Of a stretch of 61,822 nucleotides of DNA, positions 8,793 to 29,558 are shown piece after piece. Both the position numbers and the translations under genes were made by a program. The first letter of the stretch is position 1. Each line of letters opens with the position of its first letter. The notes below the pieces were generated by a model that searched no databases, was not told the DNA's origin, and worked only from the letters and a program-made list of their open reading frames with translations. Source of the stretch: a virus (Duplodnaviria > Caudoviricetes); the IMG/VR virus record IMGVR_UViG_3300046373_000181, positions 1 to 61,822 of that record; one strand, written 5' to 3'.

Positions 8793-9128
8793 ATGAATAG
8801 CAAAAACTGCCTAAACTGCCTGTGCAATGACAGCAAAACAAATCAATGCGCTCACGGCGAATTTCTGCGCGAGGTGACACCAGAAATGCTTTCTTCGCCA
8901 AACGATTGTGTGCGGTTTGAATCTATCGCTGCTTTCCTTTCTGAGCGCGGGTGGCACCCGTGGTATAACGACAATTACTGGATTAACAAAAAGTGTGTTA
9001 CCGATAACACGCGTCAAGATTACACGATGTACGGACTCTCTTTGCAAGATGCCTATACCTATGAGGTAGAAAAACTACCACCCGTACCTGTTCCACGGTA
9101 TCATTTCAGAGGCATTGCGATTCAATGA
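8793..9128 (+). CDS. Cys-rich hypothetical protein (counter-oriented moron)
   Basis: CLNCLC...CAH..C; TATATTTA promoter-like sequence upstream. Confidence 0.65.
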   Translation: MNSKNCLNCLCNDSKTNQCAHGEFLREVTPEMLSSPNDCVRFESIAAFLSERGWHPWYNDNYWINKKCVTDNTRQDYTMYGLSLQDAYTYEVEKLPPVPVPRYHFRGIAIQ

Positions 9129-9961: not shown

Positions 9962-9973
9962 ATAATTCAGGTG

Positions 9974-12145: not shown

Positions 12146-12176
12146 GCCCGTTTGCCGCTCGCAGACGGGCTTTTTT
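12146..12176 (+). terminator. Intrinsic terminator of the ncRNA
   Basis: gcccgtttgc/gcagacgggc stem followed by T6. Confidence 0.85.
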
Positions 12177-12879
12177 ATGGCTTACGATTCAACACCTCTT
12201 CCAGTTGGCTTTCCTTCTGCACATCGGCCTTAATACTGTCCACCGCACTAGCTGCCTGCTTCAACCGCTTCGATTGCTTGGTTTCAAAGAAGAGGAACCT
12301 GGCTTTTTTGGCCGCTACCTTTAGGGTGGTACTCACCGTTCCGAGCTTCGGGCCAACTCGTTTCAGCGTTCCACCCATGCGCTCCGTTTTCGTCGTTAGT
12401 ACGCCAATGACCCTACCGACTGAATCCAAACTCTTCGCTCCGATTGCTTCCCGCTGCACCGTTTGCAGATTGGCCAGCACCACCCGCCCGTCACCGGGGG
12501 TAAGGGTTGCCGGATCAATACCTTTGTCAAGCGTGCCGTTTTGCTGGAGTCCTACGTAGTTGGCGTGTTCCTGCTGGGCTTTGGTGAGCCGGGCTGCATA
12601 GTTGTCCGAGATTGCATATTGGGCGTTCAGGTCAGCTTTCCACTTATCCCCGTAAGCAATGGCTTGCTGCCAGCGACCCGCAATGTCAGCAATGACTGAA
12701 TCCTTTGTGGCGTTCAGCCGAACCAGTACAGGCAGTTCCTTGCGCAAACTGTCGCGTTCGGTCTTGTACTGCCCTGCTGTGGGGTTCCACACCTCGGGGC
12801 GCACCCAGTAGTAGCTCACCGCCCAGATGATAAGGACAATGCCAATAAGGCTCCCAAACAACTTGTAGCCCAGTGCCAT
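12175..12879 (-). CDS. N-terminally anchored coiled-coil protein (i-spanin-like)
   Basis: Single N-terminal TM followed by a long helical region. Confidence 0.55.
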   Translation of the reverse strand: MALGYKLFGSLIGIVLIIWAVSYYWVRPEVWNPTAGQYKTERDSLRKELPVLVRLNATKDSVIADIAGRWQQAIAYGDKWKADLNAQYAISDNYAARLTKAQQEHANYVGLQQNGTLDKGIDPATLTPGDGRVVLANLQTVQREAIGAKSLDSVGRVIGVLTTKTERMGGTLKRVGPKLGTVSTTLKVAAKKARFLFFETKQSKRLKQAASAVDSIKADVQKESQLEEVLNRKP

Positions 12880-12880
12880 A

Positions 12881-13132
12881 TCAGGAAGGGGTTTCGGTAG
12901 TGGTGGCTTTGGGCATCACGTCGGGCGTTGTTGATCCTGCGTTCGCTTCCTTCGCCTTTGCCAGCTCGACAAACTTTTTGCCGATAGCGTAGATCGCACC
13001 AGTGCTAATGGCGAACCATCCGGCACTATTGCCAATATTGTAGCCGGTAATTACCAGCATGGCAGCGTTTAACATTTCGACCACATCAACCAATGTGATG
13101 GGGAATGGCAGGAATTTTGATTGGTTGTTCAT
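12881..13132 (-). CDS. Small 2-TM protein (holin-like)
   Basis: 83 aa, two hydrophobic segments, follows the tail genes. Confidence 0.55.
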   Translation of the reverse strand: MNNQSKFLPFPITLVDVVEMLNAAMLVITGYNIGNSAGWFAISTGAIYAIGKKFVELAKAKEANAGSTTPDVMPKATTTETPS

Positions 13133-13135: not shown

Positions 13136-16100
13136 TTAATTAGCTGTAAATTGTAACTGCTGCATGTCAATGGCCCGGTCGCGTTTCTGGCCGTTGTCCC
13201 AAACCGTAATTCTCAATGTGGTCGGTGTGGCCAGGTTCGCCCCAGCTTCAAAAACAGTAAGTGAGGGAGTCGTGTAACTACCAAATTTCAAGCTTAGTAC
13301 CCCACTCATCACCTTAATGCTAATAGGCTGATTGGCAATCAGTGCGTTCGCCGGAGCCGTAAAGGTTTGTTGTTGGGTTAACAGCGTCGTGTTTGCGTAC
13401 CAGTAGGTTTGGGCAGGCGACACATCAAACCGGGTCTTATTGTAATACCTGGCGATCACCTTGCCTGAATTATCCAGCACATCCAAATAGATACCCCCGC
13501 TGCCGGCACTGCCAAACTCTAAATCATTGCCATTGCCGAAGGTGTTGTTAACCACCCCCGACAGTTCCCAACTGGTCGAATTGTTGGCCCCCAAACTTCG
13601 ATACACGTACTCGGTTTCATTATTCTTACTGAACTTCACAAACAGATCAGGACTGGCGAACCTATTATAGTTCTGAATACTGGTCCGAATTGAACGCACA
13701 TTGCCGCTGAACTCAGCGGTCAAATCTTCCGTGCTTGTCCGGTACCATCCGGCGATGGTTGTGCTGGCTGGCAGGGTAGATAGTCTGGGCAGTCCCGAAA
13801 GTAAATCCGTAGCGGTTGTGGTCACCTGGCGAAAGGCTTTGGTCGACGCTACCAGGCTAAGGGTCTGCGTTTCGGCAATCGAGTTCAGCCCCGTTATTTT
13901 CCAGCGATCAAGGCCCGAATAGCCCCCTTCCTCGGCGTGGTAGATATAAGCCACATCGGAGTTGGTCGGATCAATGACCGCATGGCCGAAGTGCACACCC
14001 CCGGCCATACCCGTCTGATCGGTATCCCGTCCGGTGGGACCAAATACGCCGACCAGCAAGCCATTGTCATACACATGCTGCCATTTGTTGGTCTGCGAAT
14101 CTTTCCAGAACTCACCGAAGTAGTTCCAAAAAATATGTTTACCGGCGACGGCCACATCGCCCCCCGCATACCCATTCTGATTGCCGGCGACGAAATTCGC
14201 ATGGTTGCCAATATCATACGATCCGTCACTGGGATACTCCCCCTGATAGGACGGCCCACTTGTCGCATAGGCGGTTCGCCATTTCCATCTGGTGGCTCCC
14301 AGTTTGATCGCCCCTAAATGAAAGCCGTAACCGTGGCCGTTCGCCACCATGTTCTGCTGCAGAATCGGAAGTAAACTGGAGCTGGTTAGCTTGCCTGCCG
14401 ATTCGGAGCCGTAACCCGACCAGTCGATAGGATCGCTGGCTGCTAGTGTTGTTGACGCAATACCCGTAGCGGTGCCCCATGTGGGGTTGTTACTGCCATC
14501 GAAGCCAGTCAGGCTCTGTTTGGTCCAGCTATAGCCGGGTGGGGTTGCCCCCAGACTGGAAACAGTTCGGTATAGCCCCCCGTCTTTTCCCATGTAAACC
14601 GGAGCCGACAGGCTGATGCCGGTGAACCGAAGCTGACCACTCGCCGGTAGTTCAACCACACTCAATGCCCCGGTATCGTAGCGACGAAGCAGGCCATAGG
14701 TGCGCGAATTGGACAGGGTGGCTACGTTGGTGAGTGCGCCAAAAATGTCCACATTCTGAATCAGGTTATCGAGCCTGAAATATTGGGCCGGTATTTGATT
14801 TCGCCAGTTACGAACGAGCGTCCATGAGCCATTTGTCGGAGAAAGCGTTTTGGTGTAGTCAATCGCAAATTCGAGGTACTGATCGAATAGCCGGACCGGG
14901 TTATTTGCATCTAATCCACTTACGTAGCTGGCTGGAATGTAGGCGATATTGTCAATATAAGCCCGGCTCGAATTAAAATGCTGCACCCGGTAATTGCCCC
15001 GATCACCCACCCAGAAACTACCGTCACTTTGATAGGCAATAAAGCTGTCATTGATACCCCCTGATAGGTCGGAGAAGTAAAAGCGGTCATTGCTCACGAT
15101 GGGCGTGGTACTATACCCGCCCGATTGTCCCAGCGTCCATGAAGCCGCACCGGTCGCATTACTGAACCCCTTCACCTGCTGGGCTGTGCCGGCATCGCAG
15201 ACCACGACCGTGCTGCCATTCACCGTGACGGCGAGAGGAGCCACCAGTCCCGATAGCGTGACGGCCACCGTGCCTAATGTGCCGTCACTGTTCACGGGGA
15301 ATTTGGCTACCGTGTTGGTACCTGAGATAACCCACAGAAAGTTATCCGTATCCATCGCGATCTGACGCACACCCGAAAGGGTAATTGTCCTGACCAGCGC
15401 CCCGGTTGTCTTATTGAGCACGGCAATGGTACCCGAAGTGTTGTGGGAAACAAATAAGTAGTTGCCCGTTGTCTGCACGGCAAGACCCGTAATGTAGTTA
15501 TTGGTGGTTTGCAGATCAATGGCACTATTGGCGTATGTGCCCTGACCTGGTGTGTAAGATGTTCCACTCGAAAACGTCACCCGGCTATCGTCTGAAACCC
15601 GCGTAGCAAACACCCACGTATTCTTGCCGTTACCACCGGGGCTGAACAAATCATAGCCACCGTAGTACACATTGGTACCATCCGAGCAAATGTACTCTGT
15701 GGCCTGATTGGTGCCAGTGGGCAGGTACTCAATCTTCACCTGTGGCGCACTCTTGAGGAACTTCGCCGGGGAGGGCGGTCCCTCGGCGTAATGCTGGCAG
15801 AAGTATATATAGTTACCTACCTCCACCATGCCCCGGATGAATTGATACCCCTTATGGATGCCCGTCTTACTGCCACTCGTCACGGAGGTGTTACCAATCG
15901 CCCCCTCGTAGCTGTACTGCACATTGTTGACTAGCACACGGGCAAAGTAACTACCCGCCGGTACTACACCCCCCGCATCATCCAAACCGTCCCAGGTGTA
16001 AGTAAGTGGGCTTGAACTAACAGAGACTACGCCCGACCAGAGCGTCCGGATCAACGTAGAGTCCGCCGTAAAGATGCCCGCACTACTTCGATACCCAACG

Positions 16101-16315
16101 GGTACCGAGTAGGCAAACGAGCCATCCGTCAAACTGCCATCGGGCAAGGTGAAACGTATGGCAGCCCCCGTGGGAGTTGTACCGGTTTTGGTCAGCACCA
16201 GTTTTTTAGTGGTGCCCGTGGGGACTGTTCCGGTTAGGTCAAGTCCGATGCGCTGCGACTGGGCGAAACCAGTAAAACTCGCCAGCAGGAGCAGGAAAAC
16301 AAGTAGGTGTCTCAT
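13136..16315 (-). CDS. Large signal-peptide protein: FlgD-type Ig domain plus beta-propeller repeats
   Basis: MRHLLVFLLLLASFTGFA-Q; LIRTLWSG...YTWDGLDDAGGVVPAGSYF; NHL-like repeats (FWVGDRGNYRVQHF). Confidence 0.8.
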   Translation of the reverse strand: MRHLLVFLLLLASFTGFAQSQRIGLDLTGTVPTGTTKKLVLTKTGTTPTGAAIRFTLPDGSLTDGSFAYSVPVGYRSSAGIFTADSTLIRTLWSGVVSVSSSPLTYTWDGLDDAGGVVPAGSYFARVLVNNVQYSYEGAIGNTSVTSGSKTGIHKGYQFIRGMVEVGNYIYFCQHYAEGPPSPAKFLKSAPQVKIEYLPTGTNQATEYICSDGTNVYYGGYDLFSPGGNGKNTWVFATRVSDDSRVTFSSGTSYTPGQGTYANSAIDLQTTNNYITGLAVQTTGNYLFVSHNTSGTIAVLNKTTGALVRTITLSGVRQIAMDTDNFLWVISGTNTVAKFPVNSDGTLGTVAVTLSGLVAPLAVTVNGSTVVVCDAGTAQQVKGFSNATGAASWTLGQSGGYSTTPIVSNDRFYFSDLSGGINDSFIAYQSDGSFWVGDRGNYRVQHFNSSRAYIDNIAYIPASYVSGLDANNPVRLFDQYLEFAIDYTKTLSPTNGSWTLVRNWRNQIPAQYFRLDNLIQNVDIFGALTNVATLSNSRTYGLLRRYDTGALSVVELPASGQLRFTGISLSAPVYMGKDGGLYRTVSSLGATPPGYSWTKQSLTGFDGSNNPTWGTATGIASTTLAASDPIDWSGYGSESAGKLTSSSLLPILQQNMVANGHGYGFHLGAIKLGATRWKWRTAYATSGPSYQGEYPSDGSYDIGNHANFVAGNQNGYAGGDVAVAGKHIFWNYFGEFWKDSQTNKWQHVYDNGLLVGVFGPTGRDTDQTGMAGGVHFGHAVIDPTNSDVAYIYHAEEGGYSGLDRWKITGLNSIAETQTLSLVASTKAFRQVTTTATDLLSGLPRLSTLPASTTIAGWYRTSTEDLTAEFSGNVRSIRTSIQNYNRFASPDLFVKFSKNNETEYVYRSLGANNSTSWELSGVVNNTFGNGNDLEFGSAGSGGIYLDVLDNSGKVIARYYNKTRFDVSPAQTYWYANTTLLTQQQTFTAPANALIANQPISIKVMSGVLSLKFGSYTTPSLTVFEAGANLATPTTLRITVWDNGQKRDRAIDMQQLQFTAN

Positions 16316-16318
16316 CGC

Positions 16319-17350
16319 TTAGTTGTCGAGTTGTTTCCAGGCCGTACCCGTCCAGCCGTAAAAGTGCCCTGATTGAAACACCAGCGTTCCGCCCGCGCCC
16401 GTGGGCACAGGTGTTGTCGCGTTGTTGGCAATGGTTGCATAGCCGCCATCGGAAATCTTGACCGCTCCGCCTACGTCCAGCTTTTCGGTGGGGGCCGTTA
16501 CGTTGATGCCCAGCCTGCCGCCATTTAGGGTTCTTAGGCTCATAATGGGACTAATCCCATCCGCCAGCGTGCTATAGGCCGTACTGTTGCCGTAGAAATC
16601 ATAGCCGTTGTCGGTGCCCGTGCCGGTGCTGGATGAATTAAATTTGATGACATTGCCAGCCCGCGTAATGGTCGCATCGGCATCCGTACCCAGGGCCAGG
16701 TTGCCCACATTGAACTTGAAGCCCGGCATATTCTCAAGGCCCGTCACGTTGACAAAATTGAGGGCGTAGAACTTTTTTGCGGTGCTTCCAAAAAACAGAC
16801 GTTGCTGATCCGCATTGGGTGTGATATATAACGCTTGCTGGCTGCCATTGAGCGCATCGGTCGTTGTGGTGACGTTGGTGCCCGATACCGCCGTGGAGGA
16901 AATGACACCACCGGCGCTTATGGCAATACCGGTGCCTGCCGTGAAGCCCGCCCGAATCCGGGTTAGCTCCGTGCTAAGCCGGATGTTCAGTGGTGACGCA
17001 TTGGTGCCCGCGCCGGTAAACTGGGTGGAGTCAACGAAGAGTTCCGCCCCGGTAGTAAATGTGGTCGTGGTTACACCCGTTACCCGCCCTTTGGCATCGG
17101 TCGTAATAACCGGGATGGCCGTAGATGATCCATAGGTGCCTGTCGTCCCGGTGTTGCTTAGTCGGGCATCAGGCAGCGTGCCCGTAGTGAGTGAACTGGC
17201 GCTGGTTGTTATGCCTGAAGAAATATTTCGATAGGCTGACGTTCCTGACTTTATGTATACAGAACCGGATGAGTCCTTTAAAAAAACCTGAGCCTGTGCC
17301 CCAAACGCGGAGAATAAGCCCAATAATAATAGAATGAGTCTATGTTTCAT
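16319..17350 (-). CDS. Tail fibre-like protein with signal peptide
   Basis: MKHRLILLLLGLFSAFGAQA-Q; ITTDAKGRVT, GRLGINVTAPTEKLDVGG, FYGWTGTAWKQL fibre motifs. Confidence 0.8.
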   Translation of the reverse strand: MKHRLILLLLGLFSAFGAQAQVFLKDSSGSVYIKSGTSAYRNISSGITTSASSLTTGTLPDARLSNTGTTGTYGSSTAIPVITTDAKGRVTGVTTTTFTTGAELFVDSTQFTGAGTNASPLNIRLSTELTRIRAGFTAGTGIAISAGGVISSTAVSGTNVTTTTDALNGSQQALYITPNADQQRLFFGSTAKKFYALNFVNVTGLENMPGFKFNVGNLALGTDADATITRAGNVIKFNSSSTGTGTDNGYDFYGNSTAYSTLADGISPIMSLRTLNGGRLGINVTAPTEKLDVGGAVKISDGGYATIANNATTPVPTGAGGTLVFQSGHFYGWTGTAWKQLDN

Positions 17351-17355
17351 GGTTG

Positions 17356-19956
17356 TTAGTTGCCTTGTGCGAGTGTGTTGTTTGTGAGTGTGTTGTTAGC
17401 TCCGGAATTAGCCAGCGTGTAGCCGTAGTAGGTGCCGTTGGCCTGTTTGCCCTGCGTGAGTGTGCTGTTTTTGATCGTGTTGTTGCTTCCCTTCACAACC
17501 AGTACTTCGCGGGCATAAAGACCACCATTGGCAATGGTATTGGCACTAGAAATCGACACATTGTCAAGTGTGTTATTTGATGCTCCCAGATCAATTTGCC
17601 ACGCAAACGAGGTGCCCGATCCGCCCGAGCTTACATTGTCCCAGACATTGACGGTCATGTTTTTAAAGCTGTTATTCGAACCGGTCATATCCACTCCGTA
17701 TCGGCCCGTGTAAGTGCCCCCGCTGAAGTTAACGTACTTGGACCCATATACGTAGAAAGGCCTGCCCGTTACGTTCATTGTGGCGTTCTCGAAATATAGG
17801 TATTTAGTGCTACCCACATTGTCGTCTGAAATACCATAGCCAACGACCACATTGGAACCCGTTGTGCTGAAGAAGTTGCCGGTAGACAGTGCATATTGGG
17901 TGTTAACAAACTCCGATGAAATGCCCCGGTTTTGAATAAAGCGGTTGTTAATTTCCAGAATACCTTTGATGAGTCCTGATTTACTGGCACCAAACCCGTA
18001 CTGGTTACCTGTACCCATGTACTCAAAGCGATTGTTACTAATGACCAGACCGATAATTCGCGGGTAATCATAGCCCTGTGAGAGTATTTCGTTGGCCCGC
18101 CCGACGTGGTGAACGTAGTTGGCGTGAAACCAGATATTCTTGGCGATAGCGCCCGAACTGGACCCCTGCGAATACTGCTCCATGTTCCAGCCGTTGTAAG
18201 AGCCAATGCTATTACTGGTTATCTCACAGTTGACCGTCTCCAGTCCGTCGATGGTGACCAGCTCGTTGGAGAAATAAAGCGCGTAGGCCTGCGCCCCGGC
18301 ATTATCAAACGTTGAGGAGAATTTAAAGCCATCTACTTTTACCCGATTGATGGTGTGGGTATTGGTGTAGATGAATGCTGTCGAGCCCCCGGTGCGCTGA
18401 AAATGAACGCCCCCTTTCGTAGCAGCATGAAACCAAACATTCGTCCAGTTGCCGGTCTGACCAAGCGGGGTGGTAATAACGTAGGTACCATCAGCAACGG
18501 TGGCGTTAACATTCGTCTGGGCGCTGGTCAGGAAGGTACGTATCTGGGCTTCGGTGGTGAGCGTTACCGTACTCATAGCACCAGGATTTACCCGGCTAAG
18601 GGTGCTATCGGCATACAACAGGACAGTGTCGCGCGGTGACTGAGCCGATACCGTACTTTCGGAATAAACGGCAGGCACCCATTTGAAACTGCTACCCGTT
18701 GTTGATAGTACCTTGCTGACCAGTGGGTCGTAGCCATCATAGGACTTAAGGCGGTTGTCAATTAAGGTATTGACGTATCCGTTGTCAATGGTTGCAATCC
18801 CTTCTGTTTTGGAGTAGTTGACGCCTGATGCACCAGAAATAGCATTACGAGCATCTGCCTGTGCGAAGCTACCCCCGCCACTAGCCGAAAATGTCGTGCT
18901 ACTCACCCCTGTGATACGCCCTTTTGCATCGTAGGTGATGATTGGAATAGCACTAGCCGAACCAACTGTGCCCGCCGTCAGGATGCTGTTCAACGTCAAA
19001 CTTCCCGTACCTGCTGAGCTGGTCAGATCGCCCGTGAGAGCTGGCAGGCGGGCGGCTGAGAGAATACCGCTAGTAAGCTGCGATGCGTCCGTTGTGGCCG
19101 AGCCGCCCCCGGCGTACGAAGGAATGTTAAGCACACCACCTGCATACGTCGCTACGCCACTTGTGCCGTTTGTGGTGACGGTAAGTGCTGTCGGAATGGT
19201 CGGTTTATTAAGCAGGTCGTTATAAGAACCCGACGTAGCCACGGTCGCAAACGTAGGCTTGCCGGTAATGTCTGCCCATGCGCCGGAAAACAAACTGGGC
19301 TTGTTCAACAGGTCATTGTAACTACCCGAAGTCGCTACGGTAGCGAAGTTGGGTTTGCCCGTTACATCAACCCAGGCTCCAGAGAACAAGCTGGGCTTAT
19401 TAGCTAAATCGGTATAACTGCCCGATGTGGCCACTGTGGCAAAGTTCGGCCGGTTTATCAGGTCGGTATAACTGCCTGAGAAACCGGAGCCCGTACCTGA
19501 GTTCCAGCCCGCAATCTGGGCATCCGTTACAAACCGGTGCGTGGCATCCAGGCTGATTTCCGTAGCCAGATGCGTATGTGCCGAAGGGGTAAACGTGCTG
19601 GGCTTTCCGGTCAGGTCCGCCCATGCGCCGGAGAACAAGCTAGGCTTGCCACTCAGATCGGCGTAAGCACCCGAAAACAATGTTGGCTTACCGGCGAGGT
19701 CAGAGTAGTTGCCCGAAAACAGCGTTGGTCGGTCGCTAAGGGCTGTCCATGAACTTACGCCCGTGGAAATAGTACCATTGCGCAATCCCGCAACAAATGA
19801 GGAGTCCCCAGGACTATACATCCGGGGAGAAAAGCCCATGCCTCCTTCCGATCGGAGTCGGTAGTGCAGCCGGTAAACCCCCGAGGGGCCGGGCACGAAC
19901 TGCGCCGAACTAGCCAGGGAGAATAAAAGTAAAACGCCAATCAGGTAGTGTTTCAT
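17356..19956 (-). CDS. Tail fibre/spike with signal peptide, SGSYxDLxxKP repeats and a C-terminal beta-helix
   Basis: MKHYLIGVLLLFSLASSA-Q; PSTFTPSAHTH; YDAKGRIT; Asn-rich beta-helix. Confidence 0.82.
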   Translation of the reverse strand: MKHYLIGVLLLFSLASSAQFVPGPSGVYRLHYRLRSEGGMGFSPRMYSPGDSSFVAGLRNGTISTGVSSWTALSDRPTLFSGNYSDLAGKPTLFSGAYADLSGKPSLFSGAWADLTGKPSTFTPSAHTHLATEISLDATHRFVTDAQIAGWNSGTGSGFSGSYTDLINRPNFATVATSGSYTDLANKPSLFSGAWVDVTGKPNFATVATSGSYNDLLNKPSLFSGAWADITGKPTFATVATSGSYNDLLNKPTIPTALTVTTNGTSGVATYAGGVLNIPSYAGGGSATTDASQLTSGILSAARLPALTGDLTSSAGTGSLTLNSILTAGTVGSASAIPIITYDAKGRITGVSSTTFSASGGGSFAQADARNAISGASGVNYSKTEGIATIDNGYVNTLIDNRLKSYDGYDPLVSKVLSTTGSSFKWVPAVYSESTVSAQSPRDTVLLYADSTLSRVNPGAMSTVTLTTEAQIRTFLTSAQTNVNATVADGTYVITTPLGQTGNWTNVWFHAATKGGVHFQRTGGSTAFIYTNTHTINRVKVDGFKFSSTFDNAGAQAYALYFSNELVTIDGLETVNCEITSNSIGSYNGWNMEQYSQGSSSGAIAKNIWFHANYVHHVGRANEILSQGYDYPRIIGLVISNNRFEYMGTGNQYGFGASKSGLIKGILEINNRFIQNRGISSEFVNTQYALSTGNFFSTTGSNVVVGYGISDDNVGSTKYLYFENATMNVTGRPFYVYGSKYVNFSGGTYTGRYGVDMTGSNNSFKNMTVNVWDNVSSGGSGTSFAWQIDLGASNNTLDNVSISSANTIANGGLYAREVLVVKGSNNTIKNSTLTQGKQANGTYYGYTLANSGANNTLTNNTLAQGN
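19200..19745 (-). repeat. Degenerate coding tandem repeats in the fibre gene
   Basis: About 10 copies of (F/T)SGx(Y/W)xDLxxKP, some alternating with FATVAT. Confidence 0.85.
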
Positions 19957-19972
19957 GGTTTATTTATCGTTG

Positions 19973-20464
19973 TTAAAAATTGTATTCCAGAAGTAATGCG
20001 AGCAGTTCATCGTAGCTATCGTGCGTTAGATACAGGGTCAATTCATTCAGTAGCGAGATATAGCTGGCCTCATCCGGCGATGCGCCCAACTGCACCCTGC
20101 CGGACTTGTCCGTGTACACGTTCGCCATATAGCGAGTTTGGGAGCCGGATTTGATCTCCAGCCACGCCAGCGCGGGCAGCACATTGGTAGTATTGAGCTT
20201 GACCCGCAAAAACCCTATGCTTTTCTCAACCACCGGTTGCAAGGCATTAGGCAGTGCCGCTCCCAGTTTGGAGTAGTACAAGCGGGCGGTATAATTAGCC
20301 GTATCGTCCAAAGGAAGGTCGATGACGGGGTAGCTATACGTATTGCCCTTGAATACCCTGGCGTCGTAGAGCTGTTTGGGCGTCTGCCCCCTAGCCCCAT
20401 CAATGCCAATCAGTAAAGCCGTTAGAAATAGTAGGATGTTGCCGAGTAAAAAGCGTTTGTTCAT
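19973..20464 (-). CDS. Signal-peptide protein, possible fibre adaptor (BppU-N-like)
   Basis: MNKRFLLGNILLFLTALLIGIDGARG-Q; FKGNTY..DDTANYTARL; the fold guess is weak. Confidence 0.6.
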   Translation of the reverse strand: MNKRFLLGNILLFLTALLIGIDGARGQTPKQLYDARVFKGNTYSYPVIDLPLDDTANYTARLYYSKLGAALPNALQPVVEKSIGFLRVKLNTTNVLPALAWLEIKSGSQTRYMANVYTDKSGRVQLGASPDEASYISLLNELTLYLTHDSYDELLALLLEYNF

Positions 20465-20470: not shown

Positions 20471-21853
20471 TTAGATAGTTTCGCTGAACTGGCGGAGTTT
20501 GCCCCCGCGCAAATCAATGCTGTAACTGTGACCGGAGATGGGTTCGACAATAATGGTTTCGGTGCTTTCCATGCCCCGACTGGGATCAAATGCCCAGAAG
20601 TCAAGAGCGTTATTTTTAACCCGAAACATCACATCGGGACGCCCCCGGCGGGAGTTTCCTTTCGCATAGGGACCACCAAAGGCGCTGGCGTGATCCAGAA
20701 TGGTCGTGCCGTCGGTCTTGGGCTCGATCCACTGCTCAGAACCCGCAAACCGGTAGCGGGCATACTGCCATGGCTGTCCGGCCGTGCGGGCCGTCTGGGC
20801 GTAGCGGTAAGCGGCCTCAAACGTGCTGTCTTGATAGGACAGCGCTTCCATGGGGTAGTTGTTGTCGGCCGGATTGGAACTGTAGCGGGTCCGTTCGTTG
20901 AATGGGATGCAGCCGTCGGTCATGCAGAACCCAATGCAGAAACCACACGCCATCAGCCAGTCAAAATCCACTGCTGGGTGATACTGGCCCGTTAGTACCG
21001 TTCCATCAGGCTTGGTGCGTTCGTAGAAAATGCCGTTGTGCAGGCTTCCAGGCCCCGTCTCGCCCAGCCCCTCGTAATTACCCCAGTCCAGATAAGCTAG
21101 GGGCGAACCGCCAAGGCCACCCACTCGGCCACCGCCTTTGCCCATCACCTCGGCGGCAAATTTCTTACGGTAATAGTCTGGTGCGTAATCGGGGGTGTCA
21201 GCATAATTTTTAATAATTGCCCCAACGCCAATAGGTTCAAACAGATTAAAGTAGTCACACGAGTTCCTTGCCCCAGATAGAGTCTGAATATAGCCCTTGA
21301 AGGGTGCGTTGTTTGCGTTAGGCAATACATCGGTGCTCCCTCCTGTTTTAAACAGCCATGGGTCGCCGTTGAAGTTCTCAAAGCCGCCATAGGTACCGTA
21401 GTCCCGATAAGGCTTATTGGCTGCCTGATAGGCCGCTTTGCGGGCTTGATACCACCACCGCTTTTGATCCAGGTAATAAGGCATCCCCCAGGGGTCACCC
21501 TCGCCCAGCTCATTGGCCTCCATGAAGCCCGTACCAACGGTATTGGATACGTTGATAATATCCTGTTGGGATAAACTGGACGGACCAAAGGGCTGACCGG
21601 GCGGCTTGCCCGCGTTGGCCATGATGTTTGAGTGAATCCACTCGAAACAGTATTGCCGGTTGTTATCCCGAAAGTCCATGACGGCCGAAATGCCCGCCCG
21701 GCCAATGATGTCTCCGCTTTCCTGATCCAGACGACGGTTTATGGTCGTATGAATACGATTGTCGGGCAAAGCAAATACCAACGCATTTTTCTGTCCCGTA
21801 GGCAGGTGCAGTTCGCTTTTATTAAGCCAGGCAGGGGCTAGTATTTCACTCAT
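20471..21853 (-). CDS. Tail-region protein, possibly carbohydrate-active
   Basis: Aromatic/Gly-rich, 460 aa; start taken at MSEILAP. Confidence 0.65.
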   Translation of the reverse strand: MSEILAPAWLNKSELHLPTGQKNALVFALPDNRIHTTINRRLDQESGDIIGRAGISAVMDFRDNNRQYCFEWIHSNIMANAGKPPGQPFGPSSLSQQDIINVSNTVGTGFMEANELGEGDPWGMPYYLDQKRWWYQARKAAYQAANKPYRDYGTYGGFENFNGDPWLFKTGGSTDVLPNANNAPFKGYIQTLSGARNSCDYFNLFEPIGVGAIIKNYADTPDYAPDYYRKKFAAEVMGKGGGRVGGLGGSPLAYLDWGNYEGLGETGPGSLHNGIFYERTKPDGTVLTGQYHPAVDFDWLMACGFCIGFCMTDGCIPFNERTRYSSNPADNNYPMEALSYQDSTFEAAYRYAQTARTAGQPWQYARYRFAGSEQWIEPKTDGTTILDHASAFGGPYAKGNSRRGRPDVMFRVKNNALDFWAFDPSRGMESTETIIVEPISGHSYSIDLRGGKLRQFSETI

Positions 21854-21855
21854 GA

Positions 21856-22371
21856 TTATATCGCGCCAAAAATGATGAGACTGTATCCTTTGGTTGTCCA
21901 ATTGTTAGGGTTTGTATCCGTTGAGATGGCATACAAAACCGAAATTTGATCGCCGGGAAAATAATCGTAGCCGCCAAAACTCGCTTTGCGTTCACCGTTG
22001 ATGTAGATAAACTCCTGCTGTCCCGAGGGGATGCCGTAGTTGGATGTCTTGCGAATCCGCCACTTGGTGCCATTATTTTCAGTAACCAATGTGAGTACAT
22101 TGAAATTGGCTCTAACGGTATTGGTTTGAATGTTTCCTGGGGTTGGTGGTGGCGTGATCACACTTCCACCAGAACAGTCGCGTGCCGATTCTAATTCGGG
22201 TTCGGTTGCGTAAGTTGCCGCCACCCGTCCGGCCCATGTTCTAATAGCAAAAAAGGCTGATTCACCTTGAGCACAGTTCAATGGGTCGTCGTAAGGAAAC
22301 CAACGAATGTCACCTGCCGCCCAACCAGTTACGCTAGGGGGTTGCTTAGTAAAGGGTATCCCGTAAGACAT
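21856..22371 (-). CDS. Tail-region hypothetical protein
   Basis: Pro linker ITPPPTPG; overlaps the upstream gene by 26 nt. Confidence 0.7.
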   Translation of the reverse strand: MSYGIPFTKQPPSVTGWAAGDIRWFPYDDPLNCAQGESAFFAIRTWAGRVAATYATEPELESARDCSGGSVITPPPTPGNIQTNTVRANFNVLTLVTENNGTKWRIRKTSNYGIPSGQQEFIYINGERKASFGGYDYFPGDQISVLYAISTDTNPNNWTTKGYSLIIFGAI

Positions 22372-22960
22372 AATGAGTTCCGGCTATAGCTTTTGTTAAA
22401 TCACTTTCTTGTGCATTATTGACCACGGGCATAGACTCGTTGGACAAGCTTGCATCACCTGCCGGAACTCCCTTTTGAATCGGTTCGTCCATCGGAGTTT
22501 CATCAGCAAGGTCAGAGAATTCATAGAAAATCTGATCAGACTTTCCGTTCCAATAGCGCTTTCGATAACCAGGAAAGTCGGGTAGATTTTCAGGTGGCGC
22601 AAGCCCCCACCAATTTGTTTGAATACCCTCTGGCAATGTTCTATCAGCCCGAAGTGTAAACTTTCGATTAATCCCACGAGGCATAAATTGGTCCACAGTT
22701 CCGGGGAATACCTCTAACAAAAAAGGCAGAGGTTTTCCTGTACTGTCAGACCCCGAACACATCCCATTCCCGTCTTCAGTAAAGCCAAGTAGTATCCGTG
22801 GAAGTCCGAAAATAGGTAGGGATGTGGCTGGTTTTGGAGATGTACTGTCAATGACATTCGGCTGAACGGCACCTAAAAGCTGACGCGTCTGATCTTCGGA
22901 CAGGAGTTGTTTAGGTGTTCCGTTCTCAAAGTATAAAAACTCTTTTTTGGTCGTTTCCAT
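22346..22960 (-). CDS. Tail-region hypothetical protein
   Basis: Start taken at METTKKEF; C-terminal ESDLTKAIAGTHYVL. Confidence 0.7.
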   Translation of the reverse strand: METTKKEFLYFENGTPKQLLSEDQTRQLLGAVQPNVIDSTSPKPATSLPIFGLPRILLGFTEDGNGMCSGSDSTGKPLPFLLEVFPGTVDQFMPRGINRKFTLRADRTLPEGIQTNWWGLAPPENLPDFPGYRKRYWNGKSDQIFYEFSDLADETPMDEPIQKGVPAGDASLSNESMPVVNNAQESDLTKAIAGTHYVLRDTLY

Positions 22961-22970
22961 GCTCAAGTTT

Positions 22971-25775
22971 TTAAAGGTTGATGACGTGAACAGTGACTGA
23001 AACCACACTGAAGTCTGCAAATGTGGCCTGTGCTGTGACATCGGTATTTGTTGATATACTGTTTGTCGGTATTGATAAAAGCCCTACGTTAGAAATGGAT
23101 GCACCTGATATAGAGGAAATTATAAGCCAACTTCGGCTTCGACTAGTCGTTTGCCAAGTTCCATCCGAATACTGCTCTTCCACATGCAATGACAGACTAC
23201 CACCTTCATTTACAGTTAAATTGTGTCCATCATCAGCAATTCGATAAACACCCGTAGCGGTTGCGGTACTGGCTAAAACGTAGTGTTGCCCCGCCGTTAC
23301 AGCATTTAAGTCTGATTCAGTACCCGCACCTGGATCATCGTCTGTTTCAGGTGCGAGAGCTACGGTATATTTGGTGCCGTTAAGTTTCAGGTAAAGCTTG
23401 ACCGTATCTTCCAGCGTGTTGTGAACAAATCGGGCTGTGCGTTCCGGTATCTCACTCGCATACGGTCGCCCCGCTTTGATGAGGGGACCAATAAATGCAT
23501 TGAGTTGCAGCCAGGCCCCCATGTAAAACTGCCAGATGTCGAGCGTCCTGGGGTTGCGGGTAATCATGCCCTCCTGCCAGCCACCGGGGTAAAACAGGGC
23601 GGATTCGGGAAAACTCATGTTGGTCAAATCCCCCGTTACCACGCTTGCTTGATCGATAATGACCTGCCGGTTGGTGCCGATACTGAGGTTTCCCTTAATG
23701 CGCGAATTGTTATAGAGCCCCAGATAGCCCGTATCAGTCGTCACGTTGCCGATGATCTCCGAGTGAAACAGTTCGAGTTGAGTATACTCAACAGCTAAGT
23801 TGCCCGTAAAGCGCGTGTCCGTCATGCGGGTGTAGCCACTGCCAATCAGGCTGCCCGACGCGATTTCACAACCCGTGAATTCAACCCGGCTATGAACGCT
23901 ACCTGAATGCAGGTAGCCAATTTTGCTGTCTCTGACCTTGAGCTGCGAGCTGAGCGTCTGGGTAAAGCCCACTTCCAGCTCATCAATCACGCAGGCGTTG
24001 TCGTATTCAACCAGAATCGTTACCCCGTACGCTTTAGCCACCTTGCTGTTATGAACCCGCATGGGCCCGGTGCCAAGGGATTGCAGGGGGCCCGACAGGG
24101 ACGAGTTGTGAATATCAATGGGGCCGTTGCCGTTCGCATCGACATTTACGGCTAATGCCGATTCAATCCGGGCATCGTAGACGCTCAGATACGCCCCCCT
24201 AAACAGCACGATACAGTTCAGGGGGTTGTACCCATACGTGGCGTCGGTGGTGGCGTTGAGTCGGATATTGTGGTAATCACAGCTCCCACCCCCGAAATAA
24301 TACGCGTAGGGGTTGCTCTGGGCAATCACATTCACCGTGCACATGGTCTGCTCCGAGTGAATATTATCGTGCGTTACGCACAAATTATCGCCCTGAATGT
24401 AGATTGCCCGGTCGTGAGACCGTTCCACCTGAAGCCGATGAACCTTCGACATATTGGCCGTGTCGCCCTCGCCCCGAAAATTATAGGCGTAGTTGAACAG
24501 GTTGCCGCAATTCTCGACTGTGATCGTAAAGAAGTTCGAGTCCCAGGGGTTGACGATATCCACACCCTTGCCTGAAATGTTGAAGACCTCAATCCATTCC
24601 CCGTTAGAACGCTGAGGGTTATTGAGCTGTAACCCATGCATTTCCACACGCTGGGTCAGTCCGTTTTGCACTACGGAAGGGCCGACGATCTTAATTTTGC
24701 AGGTATTTAAATTGATCTCCGTCTCGCTGCGAAGGGCGGTAAAGCTCGACCCCGTGGGCATAATGGGGCTACTGTTGCTCATCACGATGCCGAAGATATT
24801 GCGCTTTAGGAGTAGCTCACCCGTGGTGCGATACCCGCCGATGCCAGGAAACCAGACGATCAGGTTATGGCGATCACAGAAATTAATGCACTTCTGAATG
24901 GCAGTGGTATTGTCGGTGCCTCCGCCCGTAGCGAAGTTGGCATCAGGGATAGCGCCGTAGTCCTGTACACTTAAATGAAGTCCGTACCGACGCAGCCAAC
25001 GGCCTCCGCTTTTGCCCGGAGCCGCGAGGACATATACGCCATCAATTTCTTCGGTGCTACTGGGGCTATAATCAAAAGCCGTACCATCGGCCAGCAGTAA
25101 GGTGTTTTTACTGCCCGCGTAGTAGGATATGCCCGAAAGGATTTGTATTAACAGATCACTAAGCCCCCCTTCGGGCAATACATTGCCCAACGGACTACCC
25201 GATACCACCTCACCGCTAGCGGTTATCTCAATGGAAGCAACTAGTTCCGCGTTGGCCCCACCGTCCTCATCGGGGTCCAGGAACAGGTTCTTTGCGTAGA
25301 GCCAATAAAGAGTTTGTGGCCGTAAGTTTTGCCCGTCAGGGTCCTTGGTAAAGGCAAAATTTGCTACCCAGGGTTGCCAGGTAGTGAACACGCCAGCCCG
25401 TTCCAGCCGGTACTGCCAACCTGATCCCGTAGCCGACCCCGATGGTGAAAACGAATAATCACCCGTGTTCAGCTCACTTGAGGTGGTCTGAGCGGCCACC
25501 ACGGTTTGGCCCGCAATGACACCACCCGACGCGGTTAACTGAATGGGGACAGCAACCGGCTTTTCAATGGAACCGGAGAGAAACGCGGGCATATACGCGT
25601 TTCGTCCGTAAAGCCAGTAAATAACACCGGTTTGCAGGGCATTACCGTCCGGAGCCAGGGTAAACACCAGATCATCCGCCCAGTTGAACCAAGGGGTGAA
25701 GGTGTTGTCTTTTTCCAGTCTGTACTGCCAGCCGGGACCGGTTGCCGTGCCGACGGCCGCTATGGGTAGGCTCAT
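22971..25775 (-). CDS. Tailspike/depolymerase with a pectate-lyase-like beta-helix
   Basis: SVQDYGAIPD...DNTTAIQKCI; duplicated N-terminal GxATGxGWQYRLE domain; Ig-like C-terminus. Confidence 0.85.
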   Translation of the reverse strand: MSLPIAAVGTATGPGWQYRLEKDNTFTPWFNWADDLVFTLAPDGNALQTGVIYWLYGRNAYMPAFLSGSIEKPVAVPIQLTASGGVIAGQTVVAAQTTSSELNTGDYSFSPSGSATGSGWQYRLERAGVFTTWQPWVANFAFTKDPDGQNLRPQTLYWLYAKNLFLDPDEDGGANAELVASIEITASGEVVSGSPLGNVLPEGGLSDLLIQILSGISYYAGSKNTLLLADGTAFDYSPSSTEEIDGVYVLAAPGKSGGRWLRRYGLHLSVQDYGAIPDANFATGGGTDNTTAIQKCINFCDRHNLIVWFPGIGGYRTTGELLLKRNIFGIVMSNSSPIMPTGSSFTALRSETEINLNTCKIKIVGPSVVQNGLTQRVEMHGLQLNNPQRSNGEWIEVFNISGKGVDIVNPWDSNFFTITVENCGNLFNYAYNFRGEGDTANMSKVHRLQVERSHDRAIYIQGDNLCVTHDNIHSEQTMCTVNVIAQSNPYAYYFGGGSCDYHNIRLNATTDATYGYNPLNCIVLFRGAYLSVYDARIESALAVNVDANGNGPIDIHNSSLSGPLQSLGTGPMRVHNSKVAKAYGVTILVEYDNACVIDELEVGFTQTLSSQLKVRDSKIGYLHSGSVHSRVEFTGCEIASGSLIGSGYTRMTDTRFTGNLAVEYTQLELFHSEIIGNVTTDTGYLGLYNNSRIKGNLSIGTNRQVIIDQASVVTGDLTNMSFPESALFYPGGWQEGMITRNPRTLDIWQFYMGAWLQLNAFIGPLIKAGRPYASEIPERTARFVHNTLEDTVKLYLKLNGTKYTVALAPETDDDPGAGTESDLNAVTAGQHYVLASTATATGVYRIADDGHNLTVNEGGSLSLHVEEQYSDGTWQTTSRSRSWLIISSISGASISNVGLLSIPTNSISTNTDVTAQATFADFSVVSVTVHVINL

Positions 25776-28296: not shown

Positions 28297-28381
28297 TAAC
28301 GCGCTGCTGGTGAGTTAATTTCCTTAAATATAAGCACGTAAAACGGTAAAAAATTAATCAAAAACAAGGGAAAAATTAGCC

Positions 28382-29556: not shown

Positions 29557-29558
29557 GG

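What the first reader, a model, noticed from the sequence alone, without database searches (positions are those of the whole stretch)
13136..20464. A tail-fibre module in which every protein has a Sec signal peptide: possible exported fibre assembly
Seen: four consecutive, tightly spaced late-operon genes start with a basic n-region, a hydrophobic h-region and a small-residue cleavage site followed by Gln (…IDGARG-Q, …LASSA-Q, …GAQA-Q, …FTGFA-Q). Two carry fibre hallmarks: SGSYxDLxxKP repeats, PSTFTPSAHTH, shared ASxLTxGxLxxARL and IPxITxDAKGRxTGV segments, and a beta-helix. The upstream spike, hub and distal tail genes have no signal peptide. Established: tailed-phage virions assemble in the cytoplasm, and Gln at +1 is typical of Bacteroidota SPase I substrates. 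Inference: this adaptor and fibre set is exported to the periplasm and joins virions at lysis, or is a lysogen surface adhesin or decoy built from phage fibre parts.
Basis: partly seen in the sequence, partly recalled or inferred. Interest (0 to 1): 0.88.

Follow-up and report, generated by a model that had tools for sequence, protein, structure and literature searches.

The report
Phage fibre genes carrying export signals
Four neighbouring late genes at the end of a soil phage's tail module, two of them clearly fibre-like, all begin with a bacterial export signal, and the same odd arrangement recurs in other phages of the same bacterial phylum, which suggests that these fibre-like proteins mature outside the cytoplasm where phage particles are built.

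Summary
Four tightly packed minus-strand genes (163, 866, 343 and 1059 aa) each start with a basic n-region, a Leu-rich core, a small -3/-1 site and Gln at +1. This fits a Bacteroidota type I signal peptide. None of the six tail genes upstream has one.

It is not a one-off:
- Nine other phage or prophage loci of Cytophagales/Chitinophagales type carry 1-5 signal-bearing ORFs in the same place. These include a complete Spirosoma prophage and six IMG/VR contigs. At least five of the nine sit just before lysis genes.
- Three other phage loci carry homologues without signals.
- The last gene belongs to a large Bacteroidota family whose long members are T9SS cargo. The phage copies lack the T9SS sorting domain.
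- P0003 is predicted to be an intertwined homotrimer, and the P0002 C-terminus is a lyase/tailspike-like beta-helix.

Export is well supported. What the exported proteins do is not shown. My preferred reading (0.4) is peripheral fibres that fold in the periplasm and meet the tails at lysis. The main rival (0.3) is free exported glycan-binding or depolymerase proteins. I found no description of this in print.

The parts
19973..20464 (-). P0001, 163 aa. It has a signal-peptide-like or signal-anchor-like N-terminus (17-residue hydrophobic core, candidate cleavage before Gln27). It is an orphan, possibly a small beta-sandwich.
   Evidence: no homologue found; Atlas model pLDDT 0.51
20387..20464 (-). 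Codons 1-26 of P0001: the predicted signal peptide or anchor.
   Evidence: heuristic; ATG 6 nt after the upstream stop
17356..19956 (-). P0002, 866 aa. Signal peptide, then fibre-repeat shaft, then a C-terminal right-handed beta-helix.
19903..19956 (-). Codons 1-18 of P0002: predicted type I signal peptide with Gln19 at +1.
   Evidence: conserved in P0033
19165..19755 (-). P0002 residues 68-264: SGSYxDLxxKP-type fibre repeats and the PSAHTH motif. This is the part shared with annotated tail fibres of many phages.
   Evidence: tblastn hit 107 phage records, covering only 11-27% of the query in the 40 rows listed. PDB 9d93 'tail collar fibers gp4' matches residues 54-134, E 8.5e-6.
17359..18609 (-). 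P0002 residues about 450-866: beta-helix domain. It is polysaccharide-lyase-like and tailspike-like, so a candidate depolymerase.
   Evidence: AF2 block pLDDT is mostly 60-95 in this part, against 54.5 for the whole protein. Foldseek top hits are RbmB and PL6 lyases (E 1.5e-6 and up) and the Sf6 and CBA120 tailspikes. Homologues: L102 705 aa, L007 507 aa, L103/L104 467 aa.
16319..17350 (-). P0003, 343 aa. Signal peptide (codons 1-20, 17291-17350), a fibre segment shared with P0002, and a C-terminal roughly 50-aa domain shared with other signal-bearing Bacteroidota proteins. Predicted intertwined homotrimer.
   Evidence: Trimer of residues 21-343: ipSAE 0.84 against best control 0.00; runs agree in at least 81% of contacts; pLDDT at least 71.
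13136..16315 (-). P0004, 1059 aa. Signal peptide (codons 1-18, 16262-16315), a disordered linker, a FlgD-like Ig domain, tandem beta-propellers (NHL-type) and a C-terminal beta-sandwich. No T9SS sorting domain.
   Evidence: AF2 pLDDT 87.1, pTM 0.86, helix 2-14, low confidence at 15-62. Fold searches.
20471..28296 (-). Upstream tail genes without signal peptides: Dit-like 27643-28296, Tal-like 25772-27661, a 934-aa protein 22971-25775, then 22346-23041, 21856-22371 and 20471-21901.
   Evidence: PHROG hits for the Dit-like and Tal-like genes. N-termini not flagged. That the 934-aa protein is a pectate-lyase-type tailspike is my reading of its sequence; it was not tested.
12175..13132 (-). The last two genes of the operon: an 83-aa two-TM holin-like protein (12881-13132) and a 234-aa protein with an N-terminal TM segment (12175-12879, spanin-like by architecture only).
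   Evidence: no PHROG hit, so the naming is inference
12146..12170 (.). GC-rich hairpin at the convergent end of the late operon.
   Evidence: 10-bp stem with 7 GC pairs, followed by a T-run on the + strand

Best explanation
The four genes are late genes of a temperate siphovirus-like phage of a Cytophagales-type host (probably Spirosoma-like). Their products are made with the tail and lysis proteins but are sent through the host Sec translocon.

Each has a cleavable type I signal peptide. Signal peptidase I would cut before a Gln, and the host glutaminyl cyclase would turn that Gln into pyroglutamate (the Bacteroidota Q-rule). None has a T9SS C-terminal domain or a lipobox, so the mature proteins should accumulate in the periplasm. 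These proteins are:
- P0002, a trimeric fibre shaft ending in a lyase-like beta-helix.
- P0003, a short trimeric fibre.
- P0004, an Ig plus double-propeller glycan or protein binder.
- P0001, a small protein.

My preferred mechanism is that they are the phage's peripheral receptor-binding fibres. They would fold in the periplasm and be picked up by the cytoplasmically built tails only when the holin breaches the inner membrane, or in the lysate.

Shown: the signal-peptide features, their recurrence, the late-operon position, the absence of surface-sorting signals, and the fibre, beta-helix and propeller architecture.

Inferred: actual export and cleavage, periplasmic residence, and attachment to virions.
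For: Signal peptides.
- All four are flagged, with Gln at a candidate +1.
- Across 13 phage loci, 35 of 46 flagged ORFs have Gln at +1, against 19 of 219 unflagged ORFs showing the same pattern.
- The AF2 model of P0004 has an N-terminal helix at 2-14, then a low-confidence linker to residue 62.
- Homologues that are certain Sec substrates exist: 6 of 6 long family members tested carry TIGR04183 above its cut-off.

Start sites. ATG follows the previous stop by 3-16 nt, and no close alternative ATG exists except in P0002.

Conservation.
- P0033, the nearest P0002 homologue, keeps a signal peptide.
- Signal-bearing runs occur in the Spirosoma sp. KNUC1025 prophage. Its order is TerL, portal, MCP, major tail, TMP, then 862, 948 and 1033-aa signal-bearing ORFs, then spanin-like and phrog_1501 genes.
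- They also occur in L082 (4 ORFs), L102 (1) and IMG/VR L105-L109 and L111 (2-5 each), with endolysins just downstream in L105, L106, L108 and L109.

Within the module, the signal runs through it or is absent.
- L007, a Spirosoma prophage end beside an integrase, has fibre, propeller (52% identical to P0004) and two beta-helix proteins, with 0 of 5 flagged.
- In signal-bearing loci every module ORF of 300 aa or more is flagged, though two small ORFs in L021 (179 and 110 aa) and one in L107 (150 aa) are not. This pattern fits proteins that must share one compartment.

Virion-type features.
- The P0002 repeats match annotated tail fibres and a solved tail collar fibre.
- P0003 is predicted as a trimer: 0.84 against best control 0.00. 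The mark was reached by 21 of 30 solved pairs and 0 of 23 single chains, and the calibration used two copies rather than three.
- The beta-helix resembles the Sf6 and CBA120 tailspikes.
- A 1226-aa signal-bearing ORF in L109 hits a tail spike PHROG.
- Two signal-bearing proteins of L082 share the same mature N-terminus, as co-anchored RBPs do.

Operon. There are no promoter or terminator signals above chance: 17 found against 15.8 +/- 4.2 expected, and 19 against 19.8 +/- 4.4. GC content is like that of the tail genes.
Against: - No experiment bears on this: no SignalP run, virion proteome, RNA or cultured phage.
- Export would separate fibres from the cytoplasmic assembly site, and no tailed phage is known to me to assemble this way.
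- Signal-less phage homologues (L007, MW202691, L110) show that the propeller and beta-helix folds do not need export.
- The virion already has signal-less RBP candidates (the 934-aa protein and the Tal-like protein), so the exported set could be accessory.
- I found no recognisable tail-docking domain after the signal peptides.
- In the Spirosoma prophage two small ORFs without signals (179 and 110 aa) sit inside the signal-bearing run.
- Relatives identified through the Tal protein (Riemerella, Porphyromonas and Bacteroides phages) have no signal peptides on tail proteins. Only 4 of 30 CDS were flagged, and these are spanin-like or lipoprotein-like.
- The core of P0001 is long enough for a membrane anchor.
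Confidence: 0.4

Rival explanations
1. The proteins are exported but never part of the virion. They would be soluble periplasmic or released glycan-binding and depolymerase proteins that act on the producer cell's envelope or matrix. Possible roles are degrading or masking nascent surface polysaccharide or a T9SS-borne receptor, which would cut loss of progeny on debris, exclude superinfection or loosen the matrix at release.
For: - Signal peptides are present.
- P0004 is a member of a T9SS-cargo family.
- The P0002 beta-helix is closest to polysaccharide lyases.
- The position is immediately before lysis genes in at least six loci.
- The virion has other RBP candidates without signals.
Against: - Long fibre shafts and trimeric fibre architecture are not needed by a soluble enzyme.
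- Signal-less versions of the same module exist in other phages, where a periplasmic action is impossible.
- No catalytic residues were examined.
Confidence: 0.3
2. The signal peptides are inherited baggage from host genes captured by recombination and are not used productively. Most protein would stay in, or be needed in, the cytoplasm and join tails in the ordinary way.
For: - The tip domains are homologous to host-phylum secreted proteins: 79 genomic loci for P0004, and chromosomal beta-helix lipoprotein-like genes L103/L104 for P0002.
- Signal-less phage homologues exist.
Against: - Signal peptides are kept on up to five consecutive genes in ten divergent phage loci, with the Q-rule intact.
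- Nothing but P0004 itself is shared between the window and the other signal-bearing loci, apart from the P0002 beta-helix in L102. The signals are therefore not one recent capture.
- No SP-less start codons are available.
Confidence: 0.12
3. This is a lysogenic-conversion cassette. The prophage would express the four proteins in lysogens as surface adhesins or decoys built from fibre parts. Recalled analogues are lambda Lom/Bor and SM1 PblA/PblB.
For: - The phage is temperate: an integrase lies at 50322-51788.
- Signal peptides are present.
- Porphyromonas gingivalis phages carry Q-rule genes of unknown function that were proposed to modify the host envelope (PMC10367356, passages read).
Against: - Gaps to the flanking late genes are only 3-16 nt, and promoter or terminator signals are not above chance.
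- GC content is like the tail genes and unlike the low-GC island at 28-32 kb.
- There is no T9SS domain and no lipobox to reach the surface.
Confidence: 0.1
4. This is an annotation artefact. The true starts would lie downstream, and the hydrophobic N-termini would not be translated.
For: - Bacteroidota lack strong Shine-Dalgarno signals, so starts cannot be verified from sequence.
- P0002 has ATG at codons 40 and 46.
Against: - The first ATG follows the previous stop within 16 nt in all four genes.
- P0001, P0003 and P0004 have no in-frame ATG within 60 codons.
- The N-termini are conserved as signal peptides in homologues and follow the Q-rule.
Confidence: 0.03

Closest known systems
Q-rule signal-peptide genes of unknown function in Porphyromonas gingivalis phages (Matrishin et al. 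2023, PMC10367356; passages read)
   Same: They are phage-encoded proteins in Bacteroidota with SPase I signals that expose an N-terminal Gln. The Tal-like protein of this window has relatives in P. gingivalis phages.
   Different: That paper reports five scattered genes of unknown function and reads them as host-envelope modifiers. Here a whole contiguous fibre-like module at the end of the tail operon carries the signals. In the one Porphyromonas relative I inspected, only the spanin was flagged among the tail and lysis genes.
Ordinary tail-fibre / tailspike modules of siphoviruses, for example the signal-less module in the Spirosoma prophage end L007
   Same: The position after the Dit-like and Tal-like genes is the same. 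So is the domain set: fibre repeats, beta-helix and propeller. P0004 is 52% identical to the L007 copy.
   Different: Those proteins have no signal peptide and assemble in the cytoplasm. Here every member has one.
Bacteroidota T9SS cargo family 'FlgD Ig-like domain containing protein' (name)
   Same: P0004 aligns over its whole length. There are 1314 representatives at E <= 1e-3, they carry Sec signal peptides, and there are several copies per Spirosoma genome.
   Different: The long bacterial members end in a T9SS type A sorting domain (6 of 6 tested). P0004 and the phage-context copy P0200 do not.
Sec-exported and SAR endolysins (Oenococcus fOg44 Lys44, phage P1 Lyz); recalled, not looked up
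   Same: They are late phage proteins that use the host Sec system to reach the periplasm before the holin fires.
   Different: Those are single lysis enzymes, not fibre-like structural proteins.
Lambda Lom/Bor, T5 Llp and Streptococcus phage SM1 PblA/PblB; recalled, not looked up
   Same: Lom, Bor and Llp are signal-bearing envelope proteins encoded in or beside tail-fibre genes. PblA and PblB are fibre-like phage proteins that end up on the bacterial surface.
   Different: Lom, Bor and Llp are small morons with their own expression. PblA and PblB have no signal peptide and reach the surface after lysis.

Membership tests
Sec/SPase I substrates of Bacteroidota (Q-rule) | Positively charged n-region, hydrophobic h-region of about 8-15 residues, and small residues at -3/-1. 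| tested here: met
   My own heuristic flags all four. The h-region of P0001 is 17 residues, so it is borderline for an anchor. SignalP was not available.
Sec/SPase I substrates of Bacteroidota (Q-rule) | Gln at +1 of the cleavage site. | tested here: met
   Met in 4 of 4. Across 13 phage loci it is 35 of 46 flagged ORFs against 19 of 219 unflagged. The rule itself comes from PMC10653852 (abstract seen in the listing).
Sec/SPase I substrates of Bacteroidota (Q-rule) | Actual translocation and cleavage. | not testable with these tools
   This needs reporter fusions or N-terminal proteomics.
T9SS cargo | C-terminal sorting domain (TIGR04183 type A, or type B). | tested here: not met
   NCBIfam gave no hit at E <= 0.05 for P0001-P0004. 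The same library finds the domain in 6 of 6 long family members.
Bacterial lipoproteins (SPase II) | Lipobox with Cys at +1. | tested here: not met
   There is no Cys near the end of the h-region in any of the four.
Virion tail fibres / receptor-binding proteins | Fibre repeats or a tailspike fold, and a trimeric state. | tested here: met
   The P0002 repeats match annotated fibres and PDB 9d93. The beta-helix is confirmed. The P0003 trimer scores 0.84 against control 0.00, which is a prediction only.
Virion tail fibres / receptor-binding proteins | Gene lies in the tail module downstream of TMP, Dit and Tal. | tested here: met
Virion tail fibres / receptor-binding proteins | N-terminal domain that docks on the baseplate. 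| tested here: inconclusive
   No known anchor domain was found. The mature N-termini are short or disordered. The signal-less P0152 simply starts about 35 residues further in.
Virion tail fibres / receptor-binding proteins | Presence in purified particles. | not testable with these tools
   There is no isolate and no proteome.
Morons / lysogenic-conversion genes | Own promoter and terminator, atypical composition, and expression from the prophage. | tested here: not met
   Gaps are 3-16 nt and signals are not above chance. The scan uses sigma-70 consensus, which is not the Bacteroidota promoter type. GC is 0.52-0.54, like the tail genes. Expression is not testable here.
Beta-helix polysaccharide lyases / depolymerases | Right-handed parallel beta-helix fold. 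| tested here: met
   Foldseek hits RbmB, PL6 lyases and AlgE epimerases (E 1.5e-6 to 1e-4) and the Sf6 and CBA120 tailspikes. The model is confident only for residues 450-866.
Beta-helix polysaccharide lyases / depolymerases | Catalytic residues and activity. | not tested
   Identity to solved lyases is only 10-14%. I made no residue-level comparison.

The most novel reading that the evidence does not exclude
In a sizeable group of Bacteroidota siphophages the peripheral receptor-binding fibres are Sec-exported. They would be processed to pyroglutamyl N-termini, folded in the periplasm, and attached to cytoplasmically built tails only after the holin merges the two compartments. That would be a two-compartment assembly pathway for a tailed phage.
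Probability: 0.3. Interest if true: 0.92.

Novelty: new variant of a known kind. Interest (0 to 1): 0.72.

Why it matters
Tailed-phage particles are taken to be built entirely in the cytoplasm, and a signal peptide is commonly used as an argument that a protein is not a virion part. One paper I read used the lack of signal peptides to support a phage origin of DGR targets (PMC6199706).

Here a whole fibre-like module carries export signals, and the same holds in at least ten phage loci. There are two possibilities, and both matter.
- These phages finish their virions with periplasmic parts. That would be a new assembly route.
- Phages of this phylum routinely export fibre-like, glycan-directed proteins just before lysis. 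That would be an unrecognised late function.

Either way the finding affects how receptor-binding proteins are called in Bacteroidota viromes. It also offers a testable system, because one example sits in a cultured strain with a complete genome (Spirosoma sp. KNUC1025).

Tried and rejected
Searches for close relatives of the window.
- Megablast of the region against phages found nothing.
- Single-protein scans of IMG/VR with P0002, P0003, P0004, P0001, P0033 and the Tal-like protein gave nothing useful. One 21-residue match was the only hit.
- Both metagenome-contig scans found nothing, so the context of P0033 (11-kb contig) and of its cluster mate on a 56-kb contig could not be seen.
- The Tal-like protein was not found in five Spirosoma genomes.

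P0001.
- There was no homologue among 5.8 billion proteins, 50,697 phage records or the Atlas features.
- There was no significant similarity to the small ORFs that accompany the big ones in other loci (all E > 0.03 in a 16-sequence set).
- 'Adaptor' is therefore unsupported.

Other searches that led nowhere.
- Pfam and NCBIfam gave nothing above cut-off for the four proteins.
- No DNA tandem repeats lie under the protein repeats.
- tblastn of 87 window ORFs against the 79 genomic loci gave no shared neighbours except in L007. Neighbours of L021, L082 and L007 are likewise not shared with the other loci.
- Fold searches with the P0004 model gave only generic double propellers, with PorZ at rank 40, so no function follows.
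- Signal-bearing ORFs of L109 and L021 have no counterpart in isolated phages apart from one fibre piece in a Pelagibacter phage.
- Sequencing runs: one soil-metagenome DNA holder, which may be the source, and no RNA holder listed.

Literature. Searches found no description of signal-bearing tail-fibre modules. The library holds open-access papers only, and supplements were closed.

Considered and rejected.
- A host-DNA flank: phage genes lie on both sides.
- A T9SS-secreted surface fibre: no sorting domain.

Full report
WHAT THE WINDOW IS. The window is a whole IMG/VR virus record: 61.8 kb, linear, with a completeness estimate of 71. It has no tRNA genes.

PHROG searches name the following genes:
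- portal (43676-45070), major head protein (39024-40109) and tape measure protein (31485-35933);
- a Dit-like gene (27643-28296) and a Tal-like tail protein (25772-27661);
- a GH108-type endolysin (5980-6561) and an integrase (50322-51788);
- helicase, primase and two DNA methyltransferases.

It is therefore a temperate siphovirus-like phage. The Tal-like protein has tblastn relatives in 72 phage records. By first word of the organism name these are 28 Bacteroides, 14 Riemerella, 12 Porphyromonas, 13 unnamed 'Bacteriophage' and five singles, one of them labelled Shigella. The nearest relatives of the last gene of the finding lie in Spirosoma, Niastella, Chitinophagaceae, Hymenobacter and similar genomes. 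A Bacteroidota host, probably Cytophagales, is thus well supported. The one public run that holds the stretch is a soil metagenome.

THE OBSERVATION. Four minus-strand ORFs fill 13136-20464: P0001 (163 aa), P0002 (866 aa), P0003 (343 aa) and P0004 (1059 aa). Each starts at an ATG 3-16 nt after the preceding stop. Only P0002 has other in-frame ATGs within 60 codons, at codons 40 and 46.

No signal-peptide predictor was on hand, so I wrote a crude test. It required K/R before the core, a 9-residue hydropathy mean of at least 2.2, no acidic residue, and small residues at -3/-1. It flags 7 of 87 ORFs of 60 aa or more:
- the four ORFs of the finding;
- a 289-aa ORF in a low-GC island behind the tape measure gene;
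- the membrane-anchored 234-aa ORF that ends the operon;
- one probably spurious 60-aa ORF.

The five upstream tail genes that were scanned are not flagged; the sixth (22346-23041) was not scanned and has no such N-terminus by eye. All four have Gln at a candidate +1 position. P0002 and P0003 share a 60-residue segment with 28 identities. Four adjacent hits by chance is of the order of 1e-4 by my own arithmetic.

ARE THESE REAL SIGNAL PEPTIDES? Four lines of evidence say yes.

First, P0004 belongs to a very large family. There are 1314 representatives at E <= 1e-3 and 693 at E <= 1e-30.
- 90 of the 150 best hits are flagged by the same test.
- 44 of 69 complete genomic ORFs are flagged, and several more are obvious by eye but missed by the strict rule.
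- 6 of 6 long members tested end in a T9SS type A sorting domain above the curated cut-off. T9SS cargo must first cross the inner membrane by Sec, so these are certain Sec substrates.

Second, the only near-full-length homologue of P0002 (P0033, 55% identity over 87% of the query) also starts with such a peptide followed by Gln.

Third, across 13 phage loci, 35 of 46 flagged ORFs have Gln at a candidate +1. The 11 exceptions are mostly holin, spanin or lipoprotein-like. Only 19 of 219 unflagged ORFs show the same pattern. This is the Bacteroidota Q-rule (PMC10653852, abstract seen).

Fourth, the AF2 model of P0004 (pLDDT 87.1, pTM 0.86) has a helix at residues 2-14. A low-confidence linker follows to residue 62, before the first folded domain.

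WHAT THE PROTEINS ARE.

P0002. Residues 68-264 are the repeat type found in annotated tail fibres and minor tail proteins of many phages. There are 107 records, and in the 40 rows listed the match covers only 11-27% of the query. The same repeats occur in a solved 'tail collar fibers gp4' chain (PDB 9d93, E 8.5e-6). The monomer model is poor for residues 1-439, as expected for a trimeric shaft, and confident for about 450-866. That part is a right-handed beta-helix closest to polysaccharide lyases (RbmB, PL6) and also to the Sf6 and CBA120 tailspikes.

P0003. It shares only short parts with other proteins.
- It has the TDAKGR-type fibre unit found in signal-less phage fibres.
- Its last 50 or so residues are shared with signal-bearing proteins P0008, P0010 and P0012, the last of which has YadA-head repeats.
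- Three copies of residues 21-343 are predicted to form an intertwined trimer. The ipSAE is 0.84 against 0.00 for the best of three controls, the runs agree in at least 81% of contacts, and pLDDT is at least 71.
- The mark was reached by 21 of 30 solved pairs and 0 of 23 single chains. The calibration used two copies rather than three, and this is a prediction, not a measurement.

P0004. It has a FlgD-like Ig domain, NHL-type tandem propellers and a C-terminal beta-sandwich.

P0001. It is an orphan.

None of the four has a T9SS sorting domain or a lipobox. After cleavage they should therefore stay in the periplasm.

THE KEY COMPARATIVE RESULT: THE ARRANGEMENT RECURS.

(a) Spirosoma sp. KNUC1025, complete chromosome. 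A full prophage runs in this order:
- terminase large subunit, portal, major head, major tail and tape measure;
- two signal-less proteins (433 and 633 aa);
- then 862 aa (signal), 179 aa, 110 aa, 948 aa (signal) and 1033 aa (signal; a P0004 homologue);
- then small membrane proteins, an Rz-like spanin hit and a phrog_1501 protein.

(b) L082, a Spirosoma MAG. Four consecutive signal-bearing ORFs (708, 1089, 467 and 1047 aa) lie next to a tail-fibre gene and a tape-measure-like gene. The 708 and 467-aa proteins share the same mature N-terminus.

(c) L102. A 705-aa signal-bearing homologue of P0002 lies beside a minor-tail-protein hit.

(d) IMG/VR contigs found with the family alignment. In 6 of 7 the P0004 homologue has a signal-like N-terminus.
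- It sits in a run of 2-5 such ORFs: L105 has 2, L106 has 3, L107 has 4, L108 has 3, L109 has 5 and L111 has 3.
- Endolysin genes lie just downstream in L105, L106, L108 and L109, and there is an integrase in L105.
- One of the L109 ORFs hits a tail-spike PHROG.

These loci share almost nothing else with the window. The signals are therefore not one recent capture.

COUNTER-EXAMPLES.
- L007 is a Spirosoma prophage end next to an integrase. It has a 582-aa fibre, the best P0004 homologue (52% identity), a 199-aa protein and two beta-helix proteins. One of those resembles the P0002 C-terminus. None of the five is flagged.
- Podovirus record MW202691 and IMG/VR L110 also carry signal-less homologues.
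- In three relatives found through the Tal protein (Riemerella RAP44, Porphyromonas phage005b, Bacteroides Versailles) only spanin-like or lipoprotein-like genes are flagged, 4 of 30 CDS in all.

Across these loci, every module ORF of 300 aa or more is flagged or none is, though two small ORFs inside the L021 run (179 and 110 aa) and one in L107 (150 aa) are unflagged.

HOW IT MOST LIKELY WORKS. The genes lie in the late operon. The gaps are 3-16 nt, promoter-like and terminator-like sites do not exceed shuffled controls, and GC content matches the tail genes. The scan uses sigma-70 consensus, so it is weak for this phylum. A holin-like gene and a membrane-anchored gene follow, and a strong hairpin ends the operon at 12146-12170. 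The products are therefore made late, together with tails and lysis proteins, and exported.

I see two serious readings.

Reading V (0.4): they are the peripheral fibres or RBPs. They would fold in the periplasm and join tails when the holin opens the inner membrane.
- In favour: the fibre and tailspike architecture, the module position, the all-or-none pattern among the large ORFs, the shared mature N-terminus in L082, and the signal-less twin module in L007, which can only act as a cytoplasmic and hence virion or lysis-released product.
- Against: no precedent known to me, no docking domain found, and the presence of signal-less RBP candidates in the same phage.

Reading S (0.3): they are free exported glycan binders or depolymerases that act on the producer's envelope or matrix around lysis.
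- In favour: the lyase-like beta-helix, the kinship to T9SS cargo, and the adjacency to lysis genes.

Less likely readings:
- unused inherited signals (0.12);
- prophage-expressed surface adhesins (0.1);
- wrong start sites (0.03).

COMPARISON WITH WHAT IS KNOWN. Phage genes with Q-rule signals have been noted in P. gingivalis phages. These were five genes of unknown function, read as possible envelope modifiers (PMC10367356, passages read; I could not see the supplements that place them). Another paper used the lack of signal peptides on phage DGR targets as support for a phage origin (PMC6199706, passage read). This shows the usual expectation.

Sec-exported or SAR endolysins, and morons such as Lom, Bor and Llp, are the nearest functional analogies. 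I cite them from memory. Six literature searches found no report of a tail-fibre module whose members all carry signal peptides.

VERDICT. Export is well supported but not proven. The fate of the exported proteins is open. I rate it a new variant of a known kind (a tail-fibre module with Sec signals), with interest 0.72. The boldest reading not excluded, two-compartment virion assembly, gets a probability of 0.3.

Noticed in passing
window 28300-31442: A low-GC island (0.42 against 0.53 for the flanks) lies between the tape measure and Dit-like genes. It holds an anti-repressor (Ant) homologue (28888-29556) and a fifth signal-bearing ORF with Gln at +1 (30573-31442, 289 aa, no family hit). Riemerella phage RAP44 has an Ant gene plus an Ig-domain lipoprotein island just upstream of its tape measure gene.
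   Followed up: partly
L082 3178-5304 and 8598-10001: Two different signal-bearing proteins of one Spirosoma phage-like locus (708 and 467 aa) share nearly the same first 30 or so mature residues. This is as expected if both dock on one partner.
   Followed up: no
L020, L024, L033, L035, L076: P0004-family genes occur on contigs binned as Candidatus Saccharibacteria, Kaiserbacteria and Paceibacteria. Two of them have an SGNH-hydrolase-like N-terminus instead of a signal peptide. These may be mis-binned phage or Bacteroidota DNA.
   Followed up: no
L103 9702-11105 and L104 9445-10848: Chromosomal 467-aa homologues of the P0002 beta-helix (33-35% identity) sit in the same non-phage gene neighbourhood in two Cytophagales genomes. 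They have lipoprotein-like N-termini. The phage tip domain therefore has host-genome relatives.
   Followed up: partly
window 45067-46125: The head-morphogenesis protein also scores strongly (1.3e-79) against a PHROG described as Bxa ADP-ribosyl transferase.
   Followed up: no
window 5980-6561 versus 12175-13132: The GH108-type endolysin lies about 6 kb from the holin-like and spanin-like genes that end the tail operon. Plus-strand genes and two membrane-protein ORFs (9122-10474) lie in between, so the lysis functions are split.
   Followed up: no
phage record OQ791282.1: A record labelled Shigella phage Henu10 matches the Tal-like protein at the same identity (about 35%) and over the same query range as the listed Riemerella phages. 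The label looks odd.
   Followed up: no
window 941-3609: Two paralogous DNA methyltransferase genes flank a PAPS-reductase-like gene.
   Followed up: no
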